Part shown: positions 4,366 to 11,697 of the stretch, in pieces | How positions within the stretch are numbered: position 1 is the stretch's first letter | How the letters are laid out: each line of letters begins with the position of its first letter | IMG/VR virus record: IMGVR_UViG_3300009537_000005 | Strand: one strand, 5' to 3' | Length of the DNA: 64,000 bases | DNA from: a virus | The notes under the pieces: model-generated | Database searches by the model: none | What the model was told of the DNA's origin: nothing | The model's input: the letters and a program-made list of their open reading frames with translations, nothing else | Program-made: the position numbers and the translations under genes

Positions 4366-4406
4366 TTGACAAATTTACATTTTGATCCCAAAATATATGT
4401 GCAGGG
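4366..4406 (+). promoter_or_regulatory. sigma70-like promoter of family TTGACAAA-N17-CAAAATATA; drives the tRNA/Y RNA array
   Basis: cTTGACAaatttacattttgaTCCCAAAATATAtg; the same 40-nt architecture recurs at 11665, 38232(-), 51676(-) and 58940(-). Confidence 0.6.
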
Positions 4407-4626: not shown

Positions 4627-4632
4627 CCTAAT

Positions 4633-4755
4633 GTGAGCCGAAGGGTCGTGGGTTATCATATCAGAAACGTAAAAGTCGCCTCTCGGGGTGAACATACGAA
4701 GGCAGGAGCCGTGATGCCCGGCCATCTCCCATCCCATTCCTTGCTCGCATAACTT
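4633..4755 (+). ncRNA. Y RNA-like ncRNA A (Ro60-binding-type helix; 3' end abuts tRNA-Ala)
   Basis: 5' box GAGCCGAAGGGTCGTGGGTTATCAT pairs with 3' box CCTTGCTC to give GAGC-[C bulge]-GA / UU-GCUC; a pyrimidine tract CCATCTCCCATCCCATTCC precedes the 3' strand; compare human Y RNA 5' GGUCCGAAGGUAGUGAGUUAUC. Confidence 0.65.
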
Positions 4756-4827
4756 GGGGAATTCATATTAACGGGAGTATGCCTCGTTTGCACCGAGGTC
4801 GTGTGGGTTCGAGTCCCTCATTCTCCA
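4756..4827 (+). tRNA. tRNA-Ala (TGC)
   Basis: Acceptor GGGGAAT/ATTCTCC, anticodon arm CCTCG-TTTGCAC-CGAGG, T-loop TTCGAGT; atypical D-arm. Confidence 0.55.
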
Positions 4828-5087: not shown

Positions 5088-5159
5088 GCCGATATAGCTC
5101 AGATGTAGAGCAGTCGCCTTGTAAGCGACAGTGCGTGGACTCGAGAACCACTATCGGCC
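5088..5159 (+). tRNA. tRNA-Thr (TGT) with a non-canonical T-loop
   Basis: Acceptor GCCGATA/TATCGGC, D GCTC-AGATGTA-GAGC, anticodon arm GTCGC-CTTGTAA-GCGAC; T-loop reads CTCGAGA instead of TTCRAAT. Confidence 0.55.
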
Positions 5160-5162
5160 CCA

Positions 5163-5234
5163 GCGGGCTTGGTGTTAGCAGTAGCACGACGGCCTTCCAA
5201 GCCGCAAGGACGAGTGCGAATCTCGTAGCCCGCT
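5163..5234 (+). tRNA. tRNA-Gly (TCC)
   Basis: Perfect acceptor GCGGGCT/AGCCCGC, anticodon loop CTTCCAA, T-arm ACGAG-TGCGAAT-CTCGT. Confidence 0.7.
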
Positions 5235-5437: not shown

Positions 5438-5566
5438 ATGGTTTGGAACAGTCCTTTTGGTACGATTTATATCTCGCCCGACGTATATTTCGTTCTACTC
5501 GTCGTATGGTTATCTTTGCTTGTATATGGTGGAATGTACATCATGGGAGTGTTCGAAGATAAATAA
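5438..5566 (+). CDS. hypothetical 42-aa hydrophobic peptide (MVWNSPFGTIYISPDVYFVLLVVWLSLLVYGGMYIMGVFEDK) between tRNAs
   Basis: Uninterrupted ATG..TAA frame filling the gap between the two tRNA-Gln genes; predicted single TM helix; below the ORF-track size cutoff. Confidence 0.25.
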   Translation: MVWNSPFGTIYISPDVYFVLLVVWLSLLVYGGMYIMGVFEDK

Positions 5567-5639
5567 TCAGGGACGGTGTAATAGGTTGCACGTCCGGCTC
5601 TGAACCGGAAGATTGCAGGTTCGATCCCTGCTCCCTGAT
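5567..5639 (+). tRNA. tRNA-Gln (CTG)
   Basis: U1-A72 acceptor TCAGGGA/TCCCTGA, anticodon arm TCCGG-CTCTGAA-CCGGA, T-arm GCAGG-TTCGATC-CCTGC. Confidence 0.75.
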
Positions 5640-5718
5640 CCTAGAGACACACAACGGACAAGGCTAGAGGCCGCCGAAGGCGGGTGGGTAGCGAGTGGTT
5701 GACCAGTGTCTCTAACAA

Positions 5719-5791
5719 GCCGCTGTAAGATAAAGGACAGTCGCCAATGCTTCTAACATTGGGAGTGGTGGTTCGAATCCATCCAGCGGTG
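5719..5791 (+). tRNA. tRNA-Arg (TCT)
   Basis: Acceptor GCCGCTG/CAGCGGT, anticodon arm CAATG-CTTCTAA-CATTG, T-arm GGTGG-TTCGAAT-CCATC. Confidence 0.65.
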
Positions 5792-5793
5792 CC

Positions 5794-6025
5794 TATATCG
5801 GGGATTGGGAAAGTCTAGCTAATCCGCTCGCCTTGGACGCGAGAGATCGCTGGGGCAGAGCCAGCATCCCCGACCTAGCCCCCACCGGTACCAGTGAGGG
5901 GTGAGCCTAGTTTCGAGGCCAACTATTCTGTGGCTCAACACAATGTTGGTCCCTGCCTTGAGCAAGTAGGCTAGGCAAATGAAACCCGCCCGGCTGTAGC
6001 GTATGCGAAATTCGCCGGGCAATAC
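5794..6025 (+). ncRNA. unassigned structured spacer in the tRNA array (candidate ncRNA)
   Basis: 232 nt with no tRNA fold; nested inverted repeats (GGGGAT..ATCCCC; GCCCGGC-19nt-GCCGGGC); the overlapping minus-strand ORF 5819..6037 has no support. Confidence 0.25.
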
Positions 6026-6890: not shown

Positions 6891-6965
6891 GCGCCGGTAG
6901 CTCCAATCGGTTAGAGCAGGAGTCTTTTAAACTCAAGGCTGGGGGTTCGAATCCCTCGCGGCGCA
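6891..6965 (+). tRNA. tRNA-Lys (TTT)
   Basis: D GCTC-loop-GAGC, anticodon loop CTTTTAA, T-arm GGGGG-TTCGAAT-CCCTC, acceptor GCGCCGG/GCGGCGC (7-66 mismatch). Confidence 0.65.
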
Positions 6966-6970
6966 CTCCT

Positions 6971-7044
6971 GCCATCATAGTCTAGTGGAAGGACGCAAGC
7001 CTTTCAAGCTTGAGGGCGGGGGTCAGTACCCCGTGATGGTACCA
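6971..7044 (+). tRNA. tRNA-Glu (TTC), CCA encoded
   Basis: Glu-like D-arm GTCTAGTGGAAGGAC, anticodon arm CAAGC-CTTTCAA-GCTTG, T-loop GTCAGTA (non-canonical), 3' TGATGGT-A-CCA. Confidence 0.65.
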
Positions 7045-7443: not shown

Positions 7444-7463
7444 CCTGCGTTATCAAAAAGGCT

Positions 7464-7496
7464 AAAATTTCAAAATAACTTCTCTTTTTGGAGATA
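7464..7496 (+). promoter_or_regulatory. conserved upstream element (copy 2)
   Basis: AAAATTTCAAAATAACTTCTCTTTTTGGAGATA. Confidence 0.4.
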
Positions 7497-7498
7497 TA

Positions 7499-7726
7499 AT
7501 GTATGAAGTAAATATGTTTTATCCGGGCAAAGTCAGAAGTAATCTAGAAAAAGAATTTGACGATAAGATATACGGCCGTTGGGCATCCGGCTATAGCTTT
7601 GAAGATAATATCAGAGACATAGCGTTTAGCATTGAAACTCTAGACCTGGTACGAGATTTGATGGCCTACTTACCCTGTGACGGCTGGATTACGGTACGAC
7701 TGAGAGACGGAGTGGTAGAAGCATAA
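7499..7726 (+). CDS. hypothetical small protein embedded in the tRNA array
   Basis: ORF track; preceded by the conserved AAAATTTCAAAATA...CTTTTTGGAGA element plus SD. Confidence 0.35.
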   Translation: MYEVNMFYPGKVRSNLEKEFDDKIYGRWASGYSFEDNIRDIAFSIETLDLVRDLMAYLPCDGWITVRLRDGVVEA

Positions 7727-7736
7727 ATTACTACCC

Positions 7737-7770
7737 TAAAATTTCAAAATAGTCTCGCTTTTTCGGAGAG
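7737..7770 (+). promoter_or_regulatory. conserved upstream element (copy 3)
   Basis: AAAATTTCAAAATAGTCTCGCTTTTTCGGAGAG. Confidence 0.4.
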
Positions 7771-7776
7771 ATTTCC

Positions 7777-7980
7777 ATGCACAAGCAGAATAATCGTTGG
7801 ACTTGGAAAGAGTTTGGTAAGCGGATCAGCCCACACGCTGGATGGTTTAGTAGATGGAGACGTGGTGACGGGAGACTATGGAAAAAGAAGTTAAGTAAGG
7901 CGCGGAGACGAGCGTGGAAAGACCCACACCAACGGGGATTACTAAGTGTCGAGCGGGAATGTAATTGGAAGACATGGTAA
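7777..7980 (+). CDS. hypothetical basic (R/K/W-rich) small protein
   Basis: ORF track; preceded by a second copy of the same conserved upstream element. Confidence 0.35.
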   Translation: MHKQNNRWTWKEFGKRISPHAGWFSRWRRGDGRLWKKKLSKARRRAWKDPHQRGLLSVERECNWKTW

Positions 7981-8195
7981 TGCGTGGATTAGCATACAGA
8001 CGATATCAAATGGATCGTATCAAGAAGAAACGGGCCCACTACTGGGGTGGACACGCTGGTAGTGATCCAAGACTGTTGGGAATAGTTGCTAAAACACCAC
8101 ACCCTTGTAGTGGCTGGTGTTGTGGCAATCCACGGAAGCATTTTGGCGAGAAGACTCGTCAAGAAATAACATGGACGGCTGGCGATCTCGGTTGA
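7965..8195 (+). CDS. hypothetical small protein; 3' end would overlap tRNA-Ile
   Basis: ORF track; overlaps the 5' part of the tRNA called at 8173, so the true extent is uncertain. Confidence 0.2.
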   Translation: MEDMVMRGLAYRRYQMDRIKKKRAHYWGGHAGSDPRLLGIVAKTPHPCSGWCCGNPRKHFGEKTRQEITWTAGDLG

Positions 8196-8252: not shown

Positions 8253-8326
8253 GGACTGGAAGCCAATTGGATTGAGGCATCACTCTTATAAGGTGAGTAT
8301 AGCTGGTTCGACTCCAGCCCGGTCTA
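8253..8326 (+). tRNA. tRNA with anticodon TAT (would read the AUA Ile codon)
   Basis: Acceptor GGACTGG/CCGGTCT, anticodon arm TCACT-CTTATAA-GGTGA, T-arm GCTGG-TTCGACT-CCAGC. Confidence 0.55.
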
Positions 8327-8331
8327 CCTAC

Positions 8332-8405
8332 GGCTTGGTAGCTCAATTGGATAGAGCGCCACACTGTCGATGTGGTGGTTGCGGGTTCAAGTCCCGTCCG
8401 AGTCG
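8332..8405 (+). tRNA. tRNA-Asp (GTC)
   Basis: D GCTC-AATTGGAT-AGAGC, anticodon arm CCACA-CTGTCGA-TGTGG, T-arm GCGGG-TTCAAGT-CCCGT. Confidence 0.7.
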
Positions 8406-8411
8406 CCTTTA

Positions 8412-8492
8412 TAGGGCCGAAGAGTAAGTGGGTTATCATACAGTTGACGTATACCTTCGGGTACTCCCACCCTCACAACTTGCCCTATACAT
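8412..8492 (+). ncRNA. Y RNA-like ncRNA B (short form; compensatory variant of the Ro60-binding helix)
   Basis: 5' box GGGCCGAAGAGTAAGTGGGTTATCAT pairs with 3' box CTCACAACTTGCCC to give GGGC-[C]-GA / UU-GCCC. The A-to-G change on the 5' strand is matched by T-to-C on the 3' strand relative to copies A, C and D. Internal GTACC-TTCG-GGTAC tetraloop hairpin; 3' end abuts tRNA-Val. Confidence 0.65.
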
Positions 8493-8566: not shown

Positions 8567-8573
8567 CCTATAT

Positions 8574-8741
8574 GTGAGCCGACGGTAACAGGGTTCTCGT
8601 CCTTATCAGGAGGAATTCTGAATGCGGGTAACCTGCTATAGTGGTTAAAGTGATGACTAGATCGGGCCCTTATGCTGGTCCGACAACGAAAACATTGCGG
8701 GTCTTGGACCTTCCCCTGGCCACAACTTGCTCACACAACAT
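8574..8741 (+). ncRNA. Y RNA-like ncRNA C (long form, about 168 nt)
   Basis: 5' box GAGCCGACGGTAACAGGGTTCTCGTCCTTATC and 3' box CCTTCCCCTGGCCACAACTTGCTCACACAACAT pair as GAGC-[C]-GA / UU-GCUC; 3' end abuts tRNA-Met. Confidence 0.55.
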
Positions 8742-8815: not shown

Positions 8816-8886
8816 CGCGGGGTTGAGGAGCGGCTCCTCCGTAGGCTCATAACCTACTCACGTCGGTTCGAATCCGACCCCCGCTA
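8816..8886 (+). tRNA. second CAT-anticodon tRNA (Met/fMet/Ile2 undetermined); starts directly after the CCA of the previous tRNA
   Basis: D GAGG-AGCGGCT-CCTC, anticodon arm GTAGG-CTCATAA-CCTAC (initiator-like loop sequence), T-arm GTCGG-TTCGAAT-CCGAC, acceptor CGCGGGG/CCCCGCT with a 1-72 mismatch. Confidence 0.5.
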
Positions 8887-8892
8887 CTTAGT

Positions 8893-9044
8893 ACGAGCCG
8901 ACGAGTAAGTGGGTTATCTTCTATCAAAAGAGAGGTCGTGAGTTCGAATCTCACCCCGTCTACCATAGACGGGTAGCTCAGTGGCAGAGCGCTGGCGAAA
9001 GCCTTCCCACTCTCATAACTTGCTCGTACAACATAACTCACAAT
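8893..9044 (+). ncRNA. Y RNA-like ncRNA D with a permuted tRNA-like domain (YrlA-type)
   Basis: 5' box GAGCCGACGAGTAAGTGGGTTATCTT; internal T-arm GTGAG-TTCGAAT-CTCAC; then CCCGTCT-ACCAT-AGACGGG (acceptor stem closed as a hairpin over a CCA-containing loop); then TA-GCTC-AGTGGCA-GAGC D-arm; then 3' box CCTTCCCACTCTCATAACTTGCTCGTACAACAT; followed by tRNA-Tyr. Confidence 0.7.
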
Positions 9045-9125
9045 GGCGGTGCGCCCGTGTGGGAACGGGGTCGGTCTGTAGAACCGATGGCATGCGCATA
9101 GGAAGTTCGATTCTTCACGCCGCCA
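9045..9125 (+). tRNA. tRNA-Tyr (GTA), class II
   Basis: Acceptor GGCGGTG/CGCCGCC, D CCCG-TGTGGGAA-CGGG, anticodon arm TCGGT-CTGTAGA-ACCGA, 12-nt variable arm, T-loop TTCGATT. Confidence 0.7.
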
Positions 9126-9182
9126 CCTAGACCAATTCGGGTCTATTATCCGAGTGGTTTTCTCCTCGGAAAGGAGGATTCA

Positions 9183-10826
9183 GTGACTTACACAAGGCAC
9201 TATAACGTACGAAAGACGCCACAGAACCAACCAATTCCGGGTAAGAACATGGTCGCCAACAGCGCTGGCGGTTTTGCGTTCGCCGTTGACGACTGGGCAC
9301 GTCTAAGACGTTTCTTAATTCTTGGCGCAGAAGGTGGTACATACTACATTGGCGAGAAGGAGCTAACAATCGGGAATGCCGAGGCTGTACTGCGTTGCAT
9401 CAAGGAAGATGGTATTGGTGTTGTTGACACGATTGTTGATGTCAGTAAGGGTGGTAGAGCACCAAAGAACGACCCTGCTCTATTTGCTTTAGCTATGTGT
9501 GCCGGATTAGGAAACGAAAACACGAAGCGCCATGCTCTTAACGCACTGCCAGAAGTAGCACGAATTGGTACTCACCTATTCACTTTCGCAGAGTACGTAC
9601 AAGCGTTTCGTGGCTGGGGACGGTCACTGCGCCGAGCCGTTGGTGAGTGGTACACAACCAAGGAACCAAAGCAACTAGCATACCAGCTAGTGAAGTATCA
9701 ACAGCGGAACGGTTGGTCACACCGTGACTTACTGCGACTATCTCACCCTAAGTCAGATGAGCACAACGTTCTGTTCAATTGGGTGACACAAGGACCGGGC
9801 GAAGGTACACACTTTGATTTGCCGGTAAATGAAGCCACTAGGTTAATTTACGCTTTCGAGAGGGCCAAGACAGCGGACGAAGCAGAGACTATTGAGTTGA
9901 TTATAGACTACGGTCTAACTCGTGAAATGATCCAGACAAAGCACCTAAACAGTGCGGATGTTTGGTTCGCTTTGCTACAGAACATGCCTATGACAGCTAT
10001 GATCCGGAACCTAGGCAAGATGACTCAGGTTGGGCTACTAGGTGACGGCCGATGGGACTCTAACAAGATTGTGCAGGACCGACTGCGAGACTCAGTGCGG
10101 TTGGCCAAGGCAAGAATTCACCCGCTGAATGTTTTAGTAGCTCTGAGAACCTACGATAGCGGTGGCGGATACCGAGGTAAGTTAGTCTGGAATCCGTCGC
10201 GAGACATTGTGAGCGCACTGAATGACGCTTTCTACCTGGCGTTCGATGGAGTATACCCAACAGGCAGGCGGTTTGTGTTGGGCGTGGACGTGAGCAGTAG
10301 CATGAGTGCTACGATAGGCAACACAGTGTTGTCTGCGGCAGAAGCCGCTGTGGCAATGGCGATGGTAATTCGACGAACGGAAGACCAAGCTATAATCCGA
10401 GGATTCGCTGGTGGCGAACGCCGGTATAGCGATCCCTTACAAGGTCCGAACTACGATGGTTTCATGGACTTAGGCATCAGTAGAGAGACACGACTAGAGT
10501 CAGCAATGGAACGGACACGAAACAAGAACTTCGGTCGGACAGACTGTGCTCTGCCTATGTTGTGGGCACTAAAGAACGAGGTCGAAGCTGACGTATTTTG
10601 TATTTTCACTGACTCAGAAACATGGGTAGGAAAAATTCACCCAGTACAGGCGCTACAACAGTACCGAGAAAAGATGAACATCCCGGCTAAGTTGATTGTT
10701 GTGGCGATGACAAGTAATGGCTTCAGCATCGCTGACCCAAACGATGGGGGCATGCTAGACGTGGTGGGATTTGATACATCAATTCCGCAAGTGATGGCGG
10801 ACTTCATTGGGATATCAGGCCCCTAA
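9183..10826 (+). CDS. rsr: Ro60/Rsr orthologue (TROVE domain plus C-terminal vWA domain with a MIDAS motif)
   Basis: N-terminal WARLRRFLILGAEGGTYYIGEKELTIGNAEAVLRCIKEDG...PALFALAMCAG matches Ro60 (human ...[39 protein letters not shown]...PMLFALA); C-terminal VLGVDVSSSMSA is a DxSxS MIDAS motif; GTG start after GGAAAGGAGG. Confidence 0.9.
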   Translation: MTYTRHYNVRKTPQNQPIPGKNMVANSAGGFAFAVDDWARLRRFLILGAEGGTYYIGEKELTIGNAEAVLRCIKEDGIGVVDTIVDVSKGGRAPKNDPALFALAMCAGLGNENTKRHALNALPEVARIGTHLFTFAEYVQAFRGWGRSLRRAVGEWYTTKEPKQLAYQLVKYQQRNGWSHRDLLRLSHPKSDEHNVLFNWVTQGPGEGTHFDLPVNEATRLIYAFERAKTADEAETIELIIDYGLTREMIQTKHLNSADVWFALLQNMPMTAMIRNLGKMTQVGLLGDGRWDSNKIVQDRLRDSVRLAKARIHPLNVLVALRTYDSGGGYRGKLVWNPSRDIVSALNDAFYLAFDGVYPTGRRFVLGVDVSSSMSATIGNTVLSAAEAAVAMAMVIRRTEDQAIIRGFAGGERRYSDPLQGPNYDGFMDLGISRETRLESAMERTRNKNFGRTDCALPMLWALKNEVEADVFCIFTDSETWVGKIHPVQALQQYREKMNIPAKLIVVAMTSNGFSIADPNDGGMLDVVGFDTSIPQVMADFIGISGP

Positions 10827-10834
10827 ACAGTGAT

Positions 10835-10865
10835 CCCGGCACCCAGCCGGGGTCATTCTCTTTTG
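10835..10865 (+). terminator. candidate intrinsic terminator after rsr
   Basis: CCCGGC-ACCCA-GCCGGG hairpin followed by GTCATTCTCTTTTG. Confidence 0.35.
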
Positions 10866-11664: not shown

Positions 11665-11697
11665 TTGACAAATTGTAAATTTGGTCCCAAAATATAG
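11665..11697 (+). promoter_or_regulatory. promoter of the TTGACAAA-N17-CAAAATATA family upstream of the primase gene
   Basis: cTTGACAaattgtaaatttgGTCCCAAAATATAgg; the -10 ends only a few nt before the GTG/ATG, so the mRNA is nearly leaderless. Confidence 0.5.

What the first reader, a model, noticed from the sequence alone, without database searches (positions are those of the whole stretch)
8938..8995. Permuted tRNA-like domain inside Y RNA D: T-arm, then acceptor hairpin closed over CCA, then D-arm (YrlA-type tRNA mimic)
Within module D the order is GTGAG-TTCGAAT-CTCAC (a perfect T-arm), then CCCGTCT-ACCAT-AGACGGG, then TA-GCTC-AGTGGCA-GAGC (a canonical D-arm). The 7-bp acceptor stem is formed as a local hairpin whose loop contains CCA, not by the RNA termini. 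The anticodon arm is replaced by the long Ro60-binding stem. This matches the architecture described for bacterial YrlA RNAs, which mimic tRNA so that T-loop/D-loop contacts can form while the molecule stays closed. It does not look like a degraded tRNA: both arms are intact and the acceptor complementarity is perfect.
Basis: partly seen in the sequence, partly recalled or inferred. Interest (0 to 1): 0.85.

Follow-up and report, generated by a model that had tools for sequence, protein, structure and literature searches.

The report
Phage Y RNA with permuted tRNA domain
This is a phage-encoded Y RNA of the already described YrlA type, a small RNA that binds the Ro60 protein and carries a rearranged copy of a tRNA, so it is a real and tidy example of a known class, not a new kind of element.

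Summary
At 8938-8990 there is a perfect T arm, a 7-bp acceptor hairpin with loop ACCAU, the UA linker and a canonical D arm. The strict pattern occurs once in the window and in 0 of 1000 shuffles. The domain sits inside a 157-nt RNA (8888-9044). The ends of this RNA pair into a Ro60-binding helix resembling that of animal Y RNAs. It fills the spacer between tRNA-Met and tRNA-Tyr, 139 nt upstream of a Ro60 gene on the same strand, in a tailed phage absent from GenBank phages. Rfam YrlA matches it at 43.4 bits. That is below the gathering score (69) but above the published mycobacteriophage ET08 YrlA (37.4). My own model finds 47 such domains next to Ro60 genes, with strong covariation in all three helices. 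The YrlA reading is therefore supported, and the architecture was published in 2014 and 2018. Two corrections follow. First, an anticodon-arm-like hairpin (8917-8931) is also present, and un-permuting the RNA gives a complete cloverleaf. Second, the 7-bp stem plus encoded ACCA resembles M. smegmatis YrlA, which RNase P cleaves, so "stays closed" is doubtful. Verdict: a new member of a known kind, of modest interest.

The parts
8888..9044 (+). Whole Y RNA 'D' (YrlA type). It fills the entire spacer between tRNA-Met and tRNA-Tyr.
   Evidence: tRNA coordinates. MFE -54.0 kcal/mol, z -4.0, 0 of 200 shuffles as stable. Rfam YrlA match on 8907-9015.
8891..8918 (+). 5' strand of the Ro60-binding helix: GUACGAGCCGACGAGUAAGUGGGUUAUC. 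It contains GCCGACG (GNCGAAN0-1G with one substitution) and GGGUUAUC.
   Evidence: Sequence. Pair probabilities 0.7-1.0 with 9006-9029. Weak matches to the nematode sbRNA (Y RNA homologue) model, E 0.019. The same motif lies upstream of most of the 47 relatives.
8917..8931 (+). 'V' hairpin read as an anticodon-arm mimic: UCUU / CUAUCAA / AAGA. G8932 can pair with C8992 as a 27-43 pair.
   Evidence: Fixed-geometry and hairpin scans. ARAGORN cloverleaf after un-permutation. Caveat: nearest-neighbour folding prefers the register 8918-8922/8931-8935 (P 0.5 against 0.05).
8933..8937 (+). Variable-loop equivalent AGGUC (G46; C48 as Levitt partner of G8981).
   Evidence: Sequence. (A/G)GGUC is conserved in relatives.
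8938..8954 (+). T arm: 5 bp with loop UUCGAAU.
   Evidence: 4 of 5 pairs covary in 46 relatives.
8955..8973 (+). Acceptor hairpin: 7 bp, CCCGUCU/AGACGGG. The loop ACCAU (8962-8966) reads as discriminator A, CCA and one U before position +1.
   Evidence: All 6 modelled pairs covary in relatives. 7 bp is the commonest length in the family (16 of 47).
8974..8975 (+). UA linker, equivalent to tRNA U8 and A9.
   Evidence: Sequence. Conserved in the YrlA consensus and named as conserved in 10.1101/312249.
8976..8990 (+). D arm: 4 bp with loop AGUGGCA (A14, G15, G18G19, A21). G8991 is the equivalent of G26.
   Evidence: 3 of 4 pairs covary.
8994..9003 (+). GNRA-capped mini-hairpin GGC-GAAA-GCC, between the D arm and the 3' strand of the Ro60 helix.
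   Evidence: P about 0.67. Similar GNRA mini-hairpins lie at the same place in L072, L079, L053, L049 and L085.
9006..9029 (+). 3' strand of the Ro60-binding helix: CCCACUCUCAUAACUUGCUCGUAC.
   Evidence: The motif CAYAACTTGC recurs exactly in Y RNA modules B, C and D.
9183..10826 (+). Ro60 orthologue, 547 aa: the presumed protein partner.
   Evidence: Pfam vWA_Ro60 3.6e-64 and TROVE 1.8e-49. 50.5% identity to the Gordonia phage Cashline Ro-like protein.
8816..8887 (+). tRNA-Met abutting the 5' end of the Y RNA. Its 3' processing would define the 5' end of the Y RNA (inferred).
9045..9127 (+). tRNA-Tyr abutting the 3' end. RNase P cleavage at 9044/9045 would release the 3' end of the Y RNA (inferred).

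Best explanation
Window 8888-9044 encodes a YrlA-class Y RNA of an uncultivated tailed phage. It has two modules.

Module 1 is a helix formed by the 5' and 3' ends (8891-8918 with 9006-9029). It carries the conserved Ro60-recognition sequence and binds the phage Ro60 protein encoded 139 nt downstream.

Module 2 is a circularly permuted tRNA. In 5' to 3' order it has an anticodon-arm-like hairpin, the variable loop AGGUC, the T arm, an acceptor stem closed by the loop ACCAU, U8-A9, the D arm and G26. It has every nucleotide needed for the T-loop/D-loop elbow and the core triples, so it should fold into the tRNA L-shape. It should then be recognised by enzymes that read tRNA shape.

Inferred life cycle:
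- The RNA is transcribed with the tRNA array and the Ro60 gene. A promoter-like site lies at 4366-4394 and a terminator-like hairpin at 10829-10857.
- It is released by the same RNase P and 3'-end processing that matures the flanking tRNA-Met and tRNA-Tyr.
- The acceptor hairpin is exactly 7 bp followed by ACCA and one U. RNase P therefore probably also cuts between U8966 and A8967, as shown for M. smegmatis YrlA.
- That cut would leave a nicked two-piece RNA, held together by the acceptor and Ro60 helices, with a tRNA-like ACCA(U) 3' end.

The RNP then uses the tRNA-like module as a handle. It would couple phage Ro60 to a tRNA-recognising or RNA-degrading partner, with host PNPase as the precedent.

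Shown here: the sequence anatomy, family membership, conservation and covariation, and genomic context. Inferred: transcription unit, processing, RNase P nicking (about 50%), Ro60 binding and the effector.
For: Anatomy read directly. All tertiary-contact nucleotides are present.

Model matches. Rfam YrlA RF02553 aligns the T, acceptor and D arms column for column at 43.4 bits, E 3.3e-8. Under the same model, YrlAs of GenBank actinophages score 36.6-46.8 bits, and the published ET08 YrlA scores 37.4 (ET08 is named in PMC4201824 Fig. 1D).

Relatives. My own covariance model finds 47 domains of at least 42 bits in 115 Ro60 loci, all on the Ro60 strand. 98.2% of cells are paired against about 45% when partners are slid, and 13 of 15 pairs show double changes. 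Most top hits do not overlap ARAGORN tRNAs.

Context. The Ro60 gene has TROVE and vWA_Ro60 domains. The window is a phage, with a major head protein and a large terminase.

Permutation. In native order ARAGORN finds nothing. Un-permuted, it finds a perfect cloverleaf.

RNase P precedent. M. smegmatis YrlA, with a 7-bp acceptor stem, is cut by M1 RNA in vitro, and is found cut with CCA added in vivo (PMC4201824; 10.1101/312249).

Free acceptor end in relatives. They include about 18 distinct 'tRNA-order' versions in which the acceptor end is free and the Ro60 stem is closed. A free acceptor end is therefore compatible with this RNA class.
Against: - The score is below the Rfam gathering threshold (43.4 against 69), and no close relative of this phage exists. 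The best Ro60 identity is 58% over a partial match and 54% over a full-length match. Conservation of this exact RNA therefore cannot be checked.
- There are no expression, Ro60-binding or processing data.
- RNase P nicking is an extrapolation from one species. The loop is only 5 nt, and A8962-U8966 can pair to give 8 bp with a CCA triloop (P 0.77), which may hinder cleavage. Most YrlAs are thought to stay closed.
- NCCA right after a 7-bp stem occurs in only 3 of 47 relatives, a weak enrichment that could be chance.
- The anticodon-like register of the V hairpin is disfavoured by nearest-neighbour energies.
- The Ro60-motif GNCGAAN0-1G is matched with one substitution.
- My covariation alignment was fitted to the model.
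Confidence: 0.88

Rival explanations
1. Closed-loop tRNA mimic. It is the same YrlA RNA, but the acceptor hairpin is never opened. The CCA in the loop is incidental, and the RNA acts as an intact single chain like Salmonella YrlA.
For: The Salmonella YrlA crystal structure has a closed acceptor loop, and the authors state that most YrlAs are probably poor RNase P substrates (10.1101/312249). Folding predicts an 8-bp stem with a tight CCA triloop. Most relatives close the stem with stable tetraloops.
Against: Unlike those relatives, this loop is not a stable tetraloop. It reads discriminator-CCA-N, exactly as at this phage's own tRNA gene ends, many of which encode ACC or ACCA. The 7-bp stem is the feature the authors link to RNase P cleavage in M. 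smegmatis.
Confidence: 0.42
2. Tandem-tRNA junction or recombination scar. The T arm and acceptor 3' strand would come from one decayed tRNA gene, and the acceptor 5' strand and D arm from the next, with no function of their own.
For: The element lies in a dense tRNA array. Genuine tRNA-tRNA junctions in the same window do hit the permuted model: 8297-8358 at 33.9 bits and 6936-6995 at 36.1 bits. Chen et al. warn of exactly this false positive.
Against: - Junction hits score 24-39 bits and have mismatched 'acceptor' stems. D scores 71.3 bits (it is a seed of that model) and has a perfect 7-bp stem.
- No tRNA halves flank it. The flanks are the two strands of a Y RNA helix that pair with each other.
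- No window tRNA shares its acceptor stem.
- The same arrangement with the same flanks recurs beside Ro60 in dozens of unrelated contigs, with covariation.
Confidence: 0.02
3. A true permuted tRNA gene, as in Cyanidioschyzon merolae. The transcript would be circularised and re-opened, or nicked by RNase P, to yield a decoding tRNA (anticodon AUC, or CAA in another register). The Ro60-like stem would act as the processing (bulge-helix-like) element.
For: Un-permutation gives a formally perfect cloverleaf with a 7-nt loop, U33, A37 and ACCA. The tRNA-order relatives look like tRNAs carrying an insertion.
Against: - The backbone break lies inside the anticodon stem, at 27/28. The long Ro60 helix plus a mini-hairpin would stay attached there.
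- No bacterial pathway for circularising permuted tRNAs is known (own knowledge).
- The 'anticodon' loop register is not thermodynamically favoured.
- The flanking helix carries the Ro60-recognition motif, and a Ro60 gene is adjacent. A processing role does not explain either fact.
Confidence: 0.04

Closest known systems
YrlA RNAs (Rfam RF02553; Chen et al. 2014, PMC4201824; crystal structure of Salmonella Typhimurium YrlA, PDB 6CU1, Wang et al. 2018, 10.1101/312249)
   Same: A Ro60-binding stem formed by the RNA termini. An effector module in the order T arm, closed acceptor-like hairpin, UA, D arm. Conserved elbow, Levitt pair and base-triple nucleotides. Encoded within 4 kb of Ro60 on the same strand.
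   Different: - The Salmonella acceptor stem is 6 bp and stays closed. Here it is 7 bp with ACCA in the loop.
- In Salmonella the anticodon-stem equivalent is the stem leading to the Ro60 module and there is no V hairpin. Here there is a V hairpin with an anticodon-like 7-nt loop, plus an extra GNRA mini-hairpin.
- Here both strands of the Ro60 helix look metazoan-like (GGGUUAUC ... CAUAACUUG). In Salmonella and M. smegmatis only the 5' strand is recognisable.
- The score is below the Rfam gathering threshold.
Mycobacterium smegmatis YrlA (Chen et al. 2014)
   Same: A 7-bp acceptor-like stem. It is the only YrlA shown to be cut by RNase P and to carry CCA in vivo, and it is processed from a precursor together with a second Y RNA upstream of Ro60.
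   Different: In M. smegmatis the CA is added after cleavage and nibbling. Here ACCA is fully encoded, with one U before position +1. I could not retrieve the M. smegmatis sequence for a base-by-base comparison.
Actinophage YrlAs: mycobacteriophage ET08 (published), and unannotated ones I located in Sparky, Gordonia phages Cashline and Sixama
   Same: The layout is the same: GGUUAYC, V hairpin, (G)AGGUC, T arm, acceptor hairpin, UA, D arm, G, C. Ro60 is 45-50% identical. In Sixama the YrlA also sits between tRNAs of an array.
   Different: They close the acceptor stem (5-7 bp) with UUCG-type tetraloops or a long insert, not CCA. They have a GCUAAAAC linker where this RNA has the GGC-GAAA-GCC hairpin. 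Their hosts are high-GC actinobacteria, whereas this phage is 48% GC with no nucleotide match to them.
Permuted tRNA and tmRNA genes: Cyanidioschyzon merolae permuted tRNAs, and two-piece tmRNA of alpha-proteobacteria and cyanobacteria (own knowledge)
   Same: In the gene, the 3' half (T arm, acceptor 3' strand, CCA) precedes the 5' half (acceptor 5' strand, D arm). In two-piece tmRNA the intervening loop is excised to give a free CCA end held by base pairing.
   Different: Those RNAs function in translation. ARAGORN finds no tmRNA here. This RNA carries a Ro60-binding helix and no mRNA-like or decoding function is evident.
Metazoan Y RNAs and nematode sbRNAs (Rfam RF00019, RF01656)
   Same: A terminal bulged helix with GGGUUAUC on the 5' strand and AACUUG on the 3' strand. 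Weak model matches, E 0.019 for D and 0.0096 for module B.
   Different: Animal Y RNAs have no tRNA-like domain (Chen et al. 2014). The scores here are far below the gathering thresholds.

Membership tests
YrlA (as defined by Chen et al. 2014 and Wang et al. 2018) | Encoded within about 4 kb of a Ro60 (TROVE) orthologue, on the same strand. | tested here: met
   The RNA ends at 9044 and Ro60 starts at 9183, both on the + strand. Pfam TROVE 1.8e-49 and vWA_Ro60 3.6e-64.
YrlA (as defined by Chen et al. 2014 and Wang et al. 2018) | A T-arm-like stem-loop with a UUCRANY loop and a G53-C61 closing pair. | tested here: met
   GUGAG-UUCGAAU-CUCAC at 8938-8954. It aligns to the T stem of RF02553.
YrlA (as defined by Chen et al. 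2014 and Wang et al. 2018) | A D-arm-like stem-loop with two conserved G residues, preceded by the UA dinucleotide. | tested here: met
   UA-GCUC-AGUGGCA-GAGC at 8974-8990.
YrlA (as defined by Chen et al. 2014 and Wang et al. 2018) | An acceptor-like stem-loop (AS) between the T and D arms, of variable length. | tested here: met
   A 7-bp perfect hairpin at 8955-8973. The homologous helix covaries at 6 of 6 modelled pairs in 46 relatives.
YrlA (as defined by Chen et al. 2014 and Wang et al. 2018) | A Levitt pair (last variable-loop pyrimidine with purine 15) and tRNA-type base-triple nucleotides. | tested here: met
   C8937/G8981; U8974-A8980-A8986; A8975-U8978-A8988; C8979-G8987-G8935. Read from the sequence against the list in 10.1101/312249. 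The 3D formation itself is not testable here.
YrlA (as defined by Chen et al. 2014 and Wang et al. 2018) | The 5'-proximal Ro60-recognition motif GNCGAAN0-1G, within a stem formed by the RNA ends. | tested here: inconclusive
   GCCGACG at 8897-8903 has one substitution (C for the second A). The stem itself is strongly predicted (P 0.7-1.0). Relatives vary at the same position: GCCGGA, GCCGAC, GUCGAA.
YrlA (as defined by Chen et al. 2014 and Wang et al. 2018) | Bound by Ro60/Rsr; carries pseudouridine and dihydrouridine; substrate of tRNA enzymes. | not testable with these tools
   This needs immunoprecipitation, modification mapping and RNase P assays.
Rfam RF02553 (curated threshold) | A bit score at or above the gathering score of 69. 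| tested here: not met
   43.4 bits, and no hit in the gathering-mode scan. The published phage member ET08 scores only 37.4, and three other actinophage YrlAs score 36.6-46.8. The threshold therefore excludes this whole phage clade and says little about biological membership.
Canonical tRNA gene | An acceptor stem formed by the 5' and 3' ends, with the arms in the order D, anticodon, T. | tested here: not met
   ARAGORN and Rfam tRNA find nothing in 8888-9044. A cloverleaf is called only after artificial un-permutation.
Tandem-tRNA junction (known false positive for YrlA models) | The T arm and D arm belong to two adjacent complete tRNA genes. | tested here: not met
   No tRNA overlaps the element. 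The nearest tRNAs end at 8887 and start at 9045.

The most novel reading that the evidence does not exclude
The RNA is not merely tRNA-shaped. It would be a complete tRNA (acceptor with encoded ACCA, D arm, anticodon-like arm with U33 and A37, T arm) split open at position 27/28 to carry a Ro60-binding stem, and RNase P would nick it to expose a genuine CCA end. In that form it could be charged. It could also be taken for a tRNA by EF-Tu, ribosomes, synthetases or host anticodon nucleases. Phage Ro60 would then ride on, or shield, the phage's own large tRNA set during infection. The 'tRNA-order' relatives (acceptor from the termini, Ro60 stem inserted at 26/27) would be the same device made without any need for nicking.
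Probability: 0.12. Interest if true: 0.75.

Novelty: new member of a known kind. Interest (0 to 1): 0.3.

Why it matters
It adds a clean, unusually tRNA-like YrlA from a phage lineage unrelated at the nucleotide level to the actinophages where phage YrlAs were first seen. It also shows that the Rfam YrlA threshold misses this whole clade, including a published member.

The encoded 7-bp-plus-ACCA acceptor and the anticodon-like arm make it a good substrate for testing two questions. One is whether RNase P nicking and a free CCA end are a regular feature of some Y RNAs. The other is what tRNA-recognising partner phage Ro60 is tethered to.

The wider survey done here may be more useful than the finding itself. 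It turned up both circular permutations of the same Ro60-binding tRNA-like RNA next to Ro60 genes.

Tried and rejected
1. Close relatives of this phage, for fine-scale conservation. None exist in the collections searched. There is no megablast or blastn match in GenBank phages beyond tRNA fragments. The best Ro60 identity is 58% over a partial match (53% full-length) in IMG/VR and 54% in metagenomes. The exact Ro60 protein is not on record.

2. The M. smegmatis YrlA sequence, for direct comparison of the acceptor loop. I scanned genome contigs with an 18-nt primer-derived pattern. The paper's supplements are not held, and two reviews (PMC10870794, PMC6047535) are not held.

3. My lenient three-hairpin scanner. 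It proved too permissive to measure chance, at 0.64 hits per shuffled window, so I replaced it with a strict version.

4. RNA-repair or tRNA-enzyme genes near Ro60 (RtcB, ligase, CCA-adding enzyme). None were found. The neighbours are replication and recombination genes: an AAA_25 domain protein (possible helicase), PolA, UDG, RecA, a PD-(D/E)XK nuclease, an RNase H-like protein, and a GH25 lysin.

5. Tandem-tRNA junction or scar hypothesis: rejected.

6. The conserved GNCGAAN0-1G motif also matches GGCGAAAG at 8995-9002. This lies on the 3' side, inside a GNRA hairpin, so I treat it as coincidental and not as the Ro60 motif.

Full report
**1. What is in the sequence**

- T arm: GTGAG/TTCGAAT/CTCAC, 8938-8954.
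- Acceptor hairpin: CCCGTCT/ACCAT/AGACGGG, 8955-8973.
- Linker: TA, 8974-8975.
- D arm: GCTC/AGTGGCA/GAGC, 8976-8990.
- G8991 follows.

All 16 stem pairs are Watson-Crick.

A strict description asks for a perfect T stem with a TTCRANN loop, a perfect stem of at least 7 bp, a 2-nt linker, and a perfect D stem with an A..GG..A loop. It matches once in the 64-kb window and in none of 1000 dinucleotide-preserving shuffles. A looser description is not rare. It gives 0.64 hits per shuffle, and the other two real hits are junctions between neighbouring tRNA genes. It is the perfection and the context that carry the weight.

ARAGORN (27 tRNAs) and the Rfam tRNA model call nothing between 8888 and 9044.

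**2. The whole RNA and its surroundings**

The element fills the entire spacer between tRNA-Met (8816-8887) and tRNA-Tyr (9045-9127).

The spacer folds at -54.0 kcal/mol, with z = -4.0 and 0 of 200 shuffles as stable. The two ends form a long interrupted helix, 8891-8913 with 9006-9029. It encloses five hairpins. Ensemble pair probabilities are:
- acceptor, at least 0.98;
- T arm, 0.88;
- D arm, 0.64;
- terminal helix, 0.7-1.0.

The 5' strand, GAGCCGACGAGUAAGUGGGUUAUC, and the 3' strand, CCCACUCUCAUAACUUGCUC, resemble the Ro60-binding helix of animal Y RNAs. The nematode Y RNA homologue model gives a weak match (E 0.019).

A 547-aa ORF starts 139 nt downstream on the same strand. It has the Ro60 vWA domain (3.6e-64) and the TROVE domain (1.8e-49). 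It is 45-50% identical to the 'Ro-like RNA binding protein' of Gordonia and Mycobacterium phages.

The window is a tailed phage, with a major head protein and a large terminase. It is 48% GC. It has no nucleotide match in GenBank phages.

A promoter-like site (4366-4394) precedes the tRNA array, and a strong terminator-like hairpin (10829-10857) follows the Ro60 stop codon. These are consensus matches only.

**3. Family assignment**

With relaxed thresholds, Rfam's YrlA model (RF02553) matches 8907-9015 at 43.4 bits, E 3.3e-8. It aligns the T arm, acceptor hairpin, UA and D arm column for column. The gathering score is 69, so the default scan is silent.

I calibrated this on known phages. Mycobacteriophage ET08's YrlA is shown in Fig. 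1D of Chen et al. 2014 (PMC4201824). It scores 37.4 bits. Sparky scores 36.6, Cashline 42.2 and Sixama 46.8. The threshold therefore misses the whole phage clade, and the window's RNA scores as well as or better than accepted members.

I then built a covariance model of the T, acceptor and D core from eight sequences. I searched 115 Ro60 loci from IMG/VR, GenBank phages and metagenomes. It found 47 matches of at least 42 bits, all on the Ro60 strand. Most carry a GCCG(A/G)..GGUUAYC motif about 20-40 nt upstream. Lower-scoring hits are mostly tRNA-tRNA junctions, and most top hits are free of ARAGORN tRNAs.

On the 46 distinct sequences:
- 98.2% of pair cells are standard pairs, against 41-50% when partners are slid by 1-3 columns;
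- 13 of 15 pairs show compensatory double changes, including all six modelled acceptor pairs.

Caveat: the alignment is fitted to the model, and the window's RNA is one of the seeds.

**4. What was already known**

Chen et al. 2014 reported YrlA-like RNAs near Ro60 in 254 bacteria and 22 phages. They described the T, AS, D and V stem-loops and the tRNA-like tertiary pairs. They showed TruB and DusA modification of Salmonella YrlA.

They also showed that M. smegmatis YrlA, the one tested RNA with a 7-bp acceptor-like stem, is cut by RNase P RNA in vitro. In vivo it exists as two halves, one carrying an added CA that completes CCA.

Wang et al. 2018 solved the Salmonella domain (PDB 6CU1). [quoted passage not shown]

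The RNA here is a new member in an undescribed phage, not a new kind.

**5. Points where this member, or my reading, differs**

(a) *Acceptor loop.* In relatives the stem is most often 7 bp (16 of 47) and usually capped by UUCG or GNRA tetraloops. Only three have N-CCA directly after a 7-bp stem:
- the window, with ACCA+U;
- L079:1839, with ACCA+7 nt;
- L052:4829, with UCCA+4 nt.

Many of this phage's own tRNA genes end in ACC or ACCA. The loop therefore looks like a tRNA 3' end joined through one U to position +1. With the M. smegmatis precedent, I infer about a 50% chance that RNase P nicks it at 8966/8967. The competing A8962-U8966 pair (P 0.77) and the small loop argue the other way.

Immediately 5' of the variable loop AGGUC lies UCUU-CUAUCAA-AAGA (8917-8931). 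G8932 and C8992 can add a fifth pair. Joining C8992 to U8917 yields a flawless ARAGORN cloverleaf:
- a 7-bp acceptor stem and a 4-bp D stem;
- a 5-bp anticodon stem with a 7-nt loop carrying U33 and A37;
- a 5-nt variable loop, a 5-bp T stem and ACCA.

Analogous constructs from four relatives also give cloverleaves, although one is called with an undetermined anticodon.

Across the family, 7-nt V loops have U at position 2 and a purine at position 6 in 17 of 22 cases (YrlA order) and 12 of 13 cases (tRNA order). About 1 in 8 is expected by chance. With a fixed, unselected geometry, 11 of 63 sequences, the window among them, have all four stem pairs. All 11 show U2 and R6.

Against this, nearest-neighbour folding prefers another register in the window. 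Chen et al. equate V with a variable arm.

I conclude that in this subgroup the RNA is a whole tRNA permuted at about 27/28. This is comparative inference at moderate confidence.

(c) *Extra hairpin.* A GGC-GAAA-GCC mini-hairpin (8994-9003) sits between the D arm and the 3' strand of the Ro60 helix. Similar GNRA hairpins occur at that site in at least five relatives. Actinophage YrlAs have GCUAAAAC there.

**6. Rivals**

*Tandem-tRNA junction or recombination scar.* This is rejected:
- no tRNA halves flank the element;
- the flanks pair with each other as a Y RNA stem;
- no window tRNA shares the acceptor stem;
- the architecture recurs beside Ro60 genes elsewhere.

*A decoding permuted tRNA.* This is formally possible but unlikely, given the break inside the anticodon stem and the retained Ro60 helix.

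*A closed, never-nicked mimic.* This remains a live alternative to the nicked form. It concerns processing only, not identity.

**7. Mechanism**

Shown here: the anatomy, the family, the conservation and the context.

Inferred from the named precedents:
- Ro60 binds the terminal helix.
- The tRNA-like module folds into an L-shape and is handled by tRNA enzymes.
- The RNA is excised from the tRNA-array transcript by RNase P and tRNA 3'-end processing.
- The RNP tethers phage Ro60 to an effector. Precedents are PNPase in Deinococcus and Salmonella, and Thermus phage phiLo Ro60 with its Y-like RNAs and host PNPase (PMC12135203).

No RNA-repair genes accompany Ro60 here.

**8. Verdict**

It is a new member of a known kind.

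Interest is modest (0.3). The extra value lies in three things: the encoded CCA, the complete-cloverleaf reading, and the by-product finding of the opposite circular permutation in related loci.

Noticed in passing
L002:2192-2314 (=L058, L062); L012:5307-5433, 5525-5652, 5762-5886; L030:1636-1756, 1766-1888, 2191-2314; L008:6536-6661 (=L101); L038:693-809; L051:1258-1381; L067:434-556; L069:2293-2418; L070:1833-1965; L073:2701-2821; L077:1981-2103; L093:1221-1344: Next to many metagenomic and viral Ro60 genes there are RNAs of about 120-130 nt in normal tRNA order. The acceptor stem is formed by the termini, followed by the D arm, and they end with the variable loop and T arm. A hairpin of about 50 nt is inserted after position 26. 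It carries the Y RNA Ro60-binding motifs (…GGGCCGA..G..GGUUAYC on its 3' strand), and an anticodon-like hairpin follows it. This is the opposite circular permutation of YrlA. Rfam tRNA hits five of them full-length with a large insert. In 16 aligned sequences all 7 acceptor pairs covary. However, my scanner required acceptor pairing, so pairing itself is by construction. I found no description of this form in the held literature.
   Followed up: partly
window 4627-4757, 8406-8492, 8569-8741: Three more Y RNA-like modules lie in the same tRNA array. Each has a GAGCCGA..GGGUU(A/C)UC 5' strand and a CA(C/U)AACUUG(C/G) 3' strand pairing as a terminal helix. None has a tRNA-like core: the covariance model R1 hits only D. 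Module B (about 85 nt) gives weak matches to the nematode sbRNA model (E 0.0096) and the metazoan Y_RNA model. The phage thus appears to carry four Y RNAs, one of YrlA type and three of other types.
   Followed up: partly
L035 (Gordonia phage Sixama) 5901-5999; L032 (Cashline) 2790-2886 and 2666-2727; L033 (Sparky) 2632-2696: GenBank actinophages carry YrlA-type RNAs beside their Ro-like genes that are not annotated in the records. In Sixama the YrlA lies between tRNA-Gln and tRNA-Ile of the array. ARAGORN mis-calls part of it as 'tRNA-Leu(gag)'.
   Followed up: partly
Rfam RF02553 versus phage loci: The Rfam YrlA gathering score (69 bits) excludes every phage YrlA examined here (36.6-46.8 bits), including the published ET08 RNA. 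Default Rfam annotation will therefore systematically miss phage Y RNAs.
   Followed up: yes
window 7446-8172: A 727-nt gap in the tRNA array holds three small ORFs. Two of them are preceded by a repeated motif, CTAAAATTTCAAAATA(A/G)..CTC..TTTT.GGAGA, at about 7461 and 7737. This looks like a reiterated promoter/RBS cassette. The same TTGACA-17-CAAAAT promoter-like site occurs at 4366 and at 11665.
   Followed up: no
window 5088-5159 and 5163-5234: Two tRNAs are found by the Rfam tRNA model (53.1 and 49.5 bits) but not by ARAGORN. Conversely, ARAGORN calls several tRNAs that are absent from the Rfam gathering list, for example Trp 4479, Cys 6412, Leu-taa 6668, both Met genes and Tyr. The phage therefore encodes about 29 tRNAs.
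   Followed up: no
L067:434-711; L030:1636-1888; L049:1754-1920: Tandem arrays of the tRNA-order units create junctions (T arm, acceptor 3' strand, spacer, acceptor 5' strand, D arm) that score as YrlA-order hits. In L030 the neighbouring units have near-identical acceptor stems, so either permutation could form from one transcript. This suggests a simple evolutionary route between the two permutations, by tandem duplication followed by loss of the outer halves.
   Followed up: no
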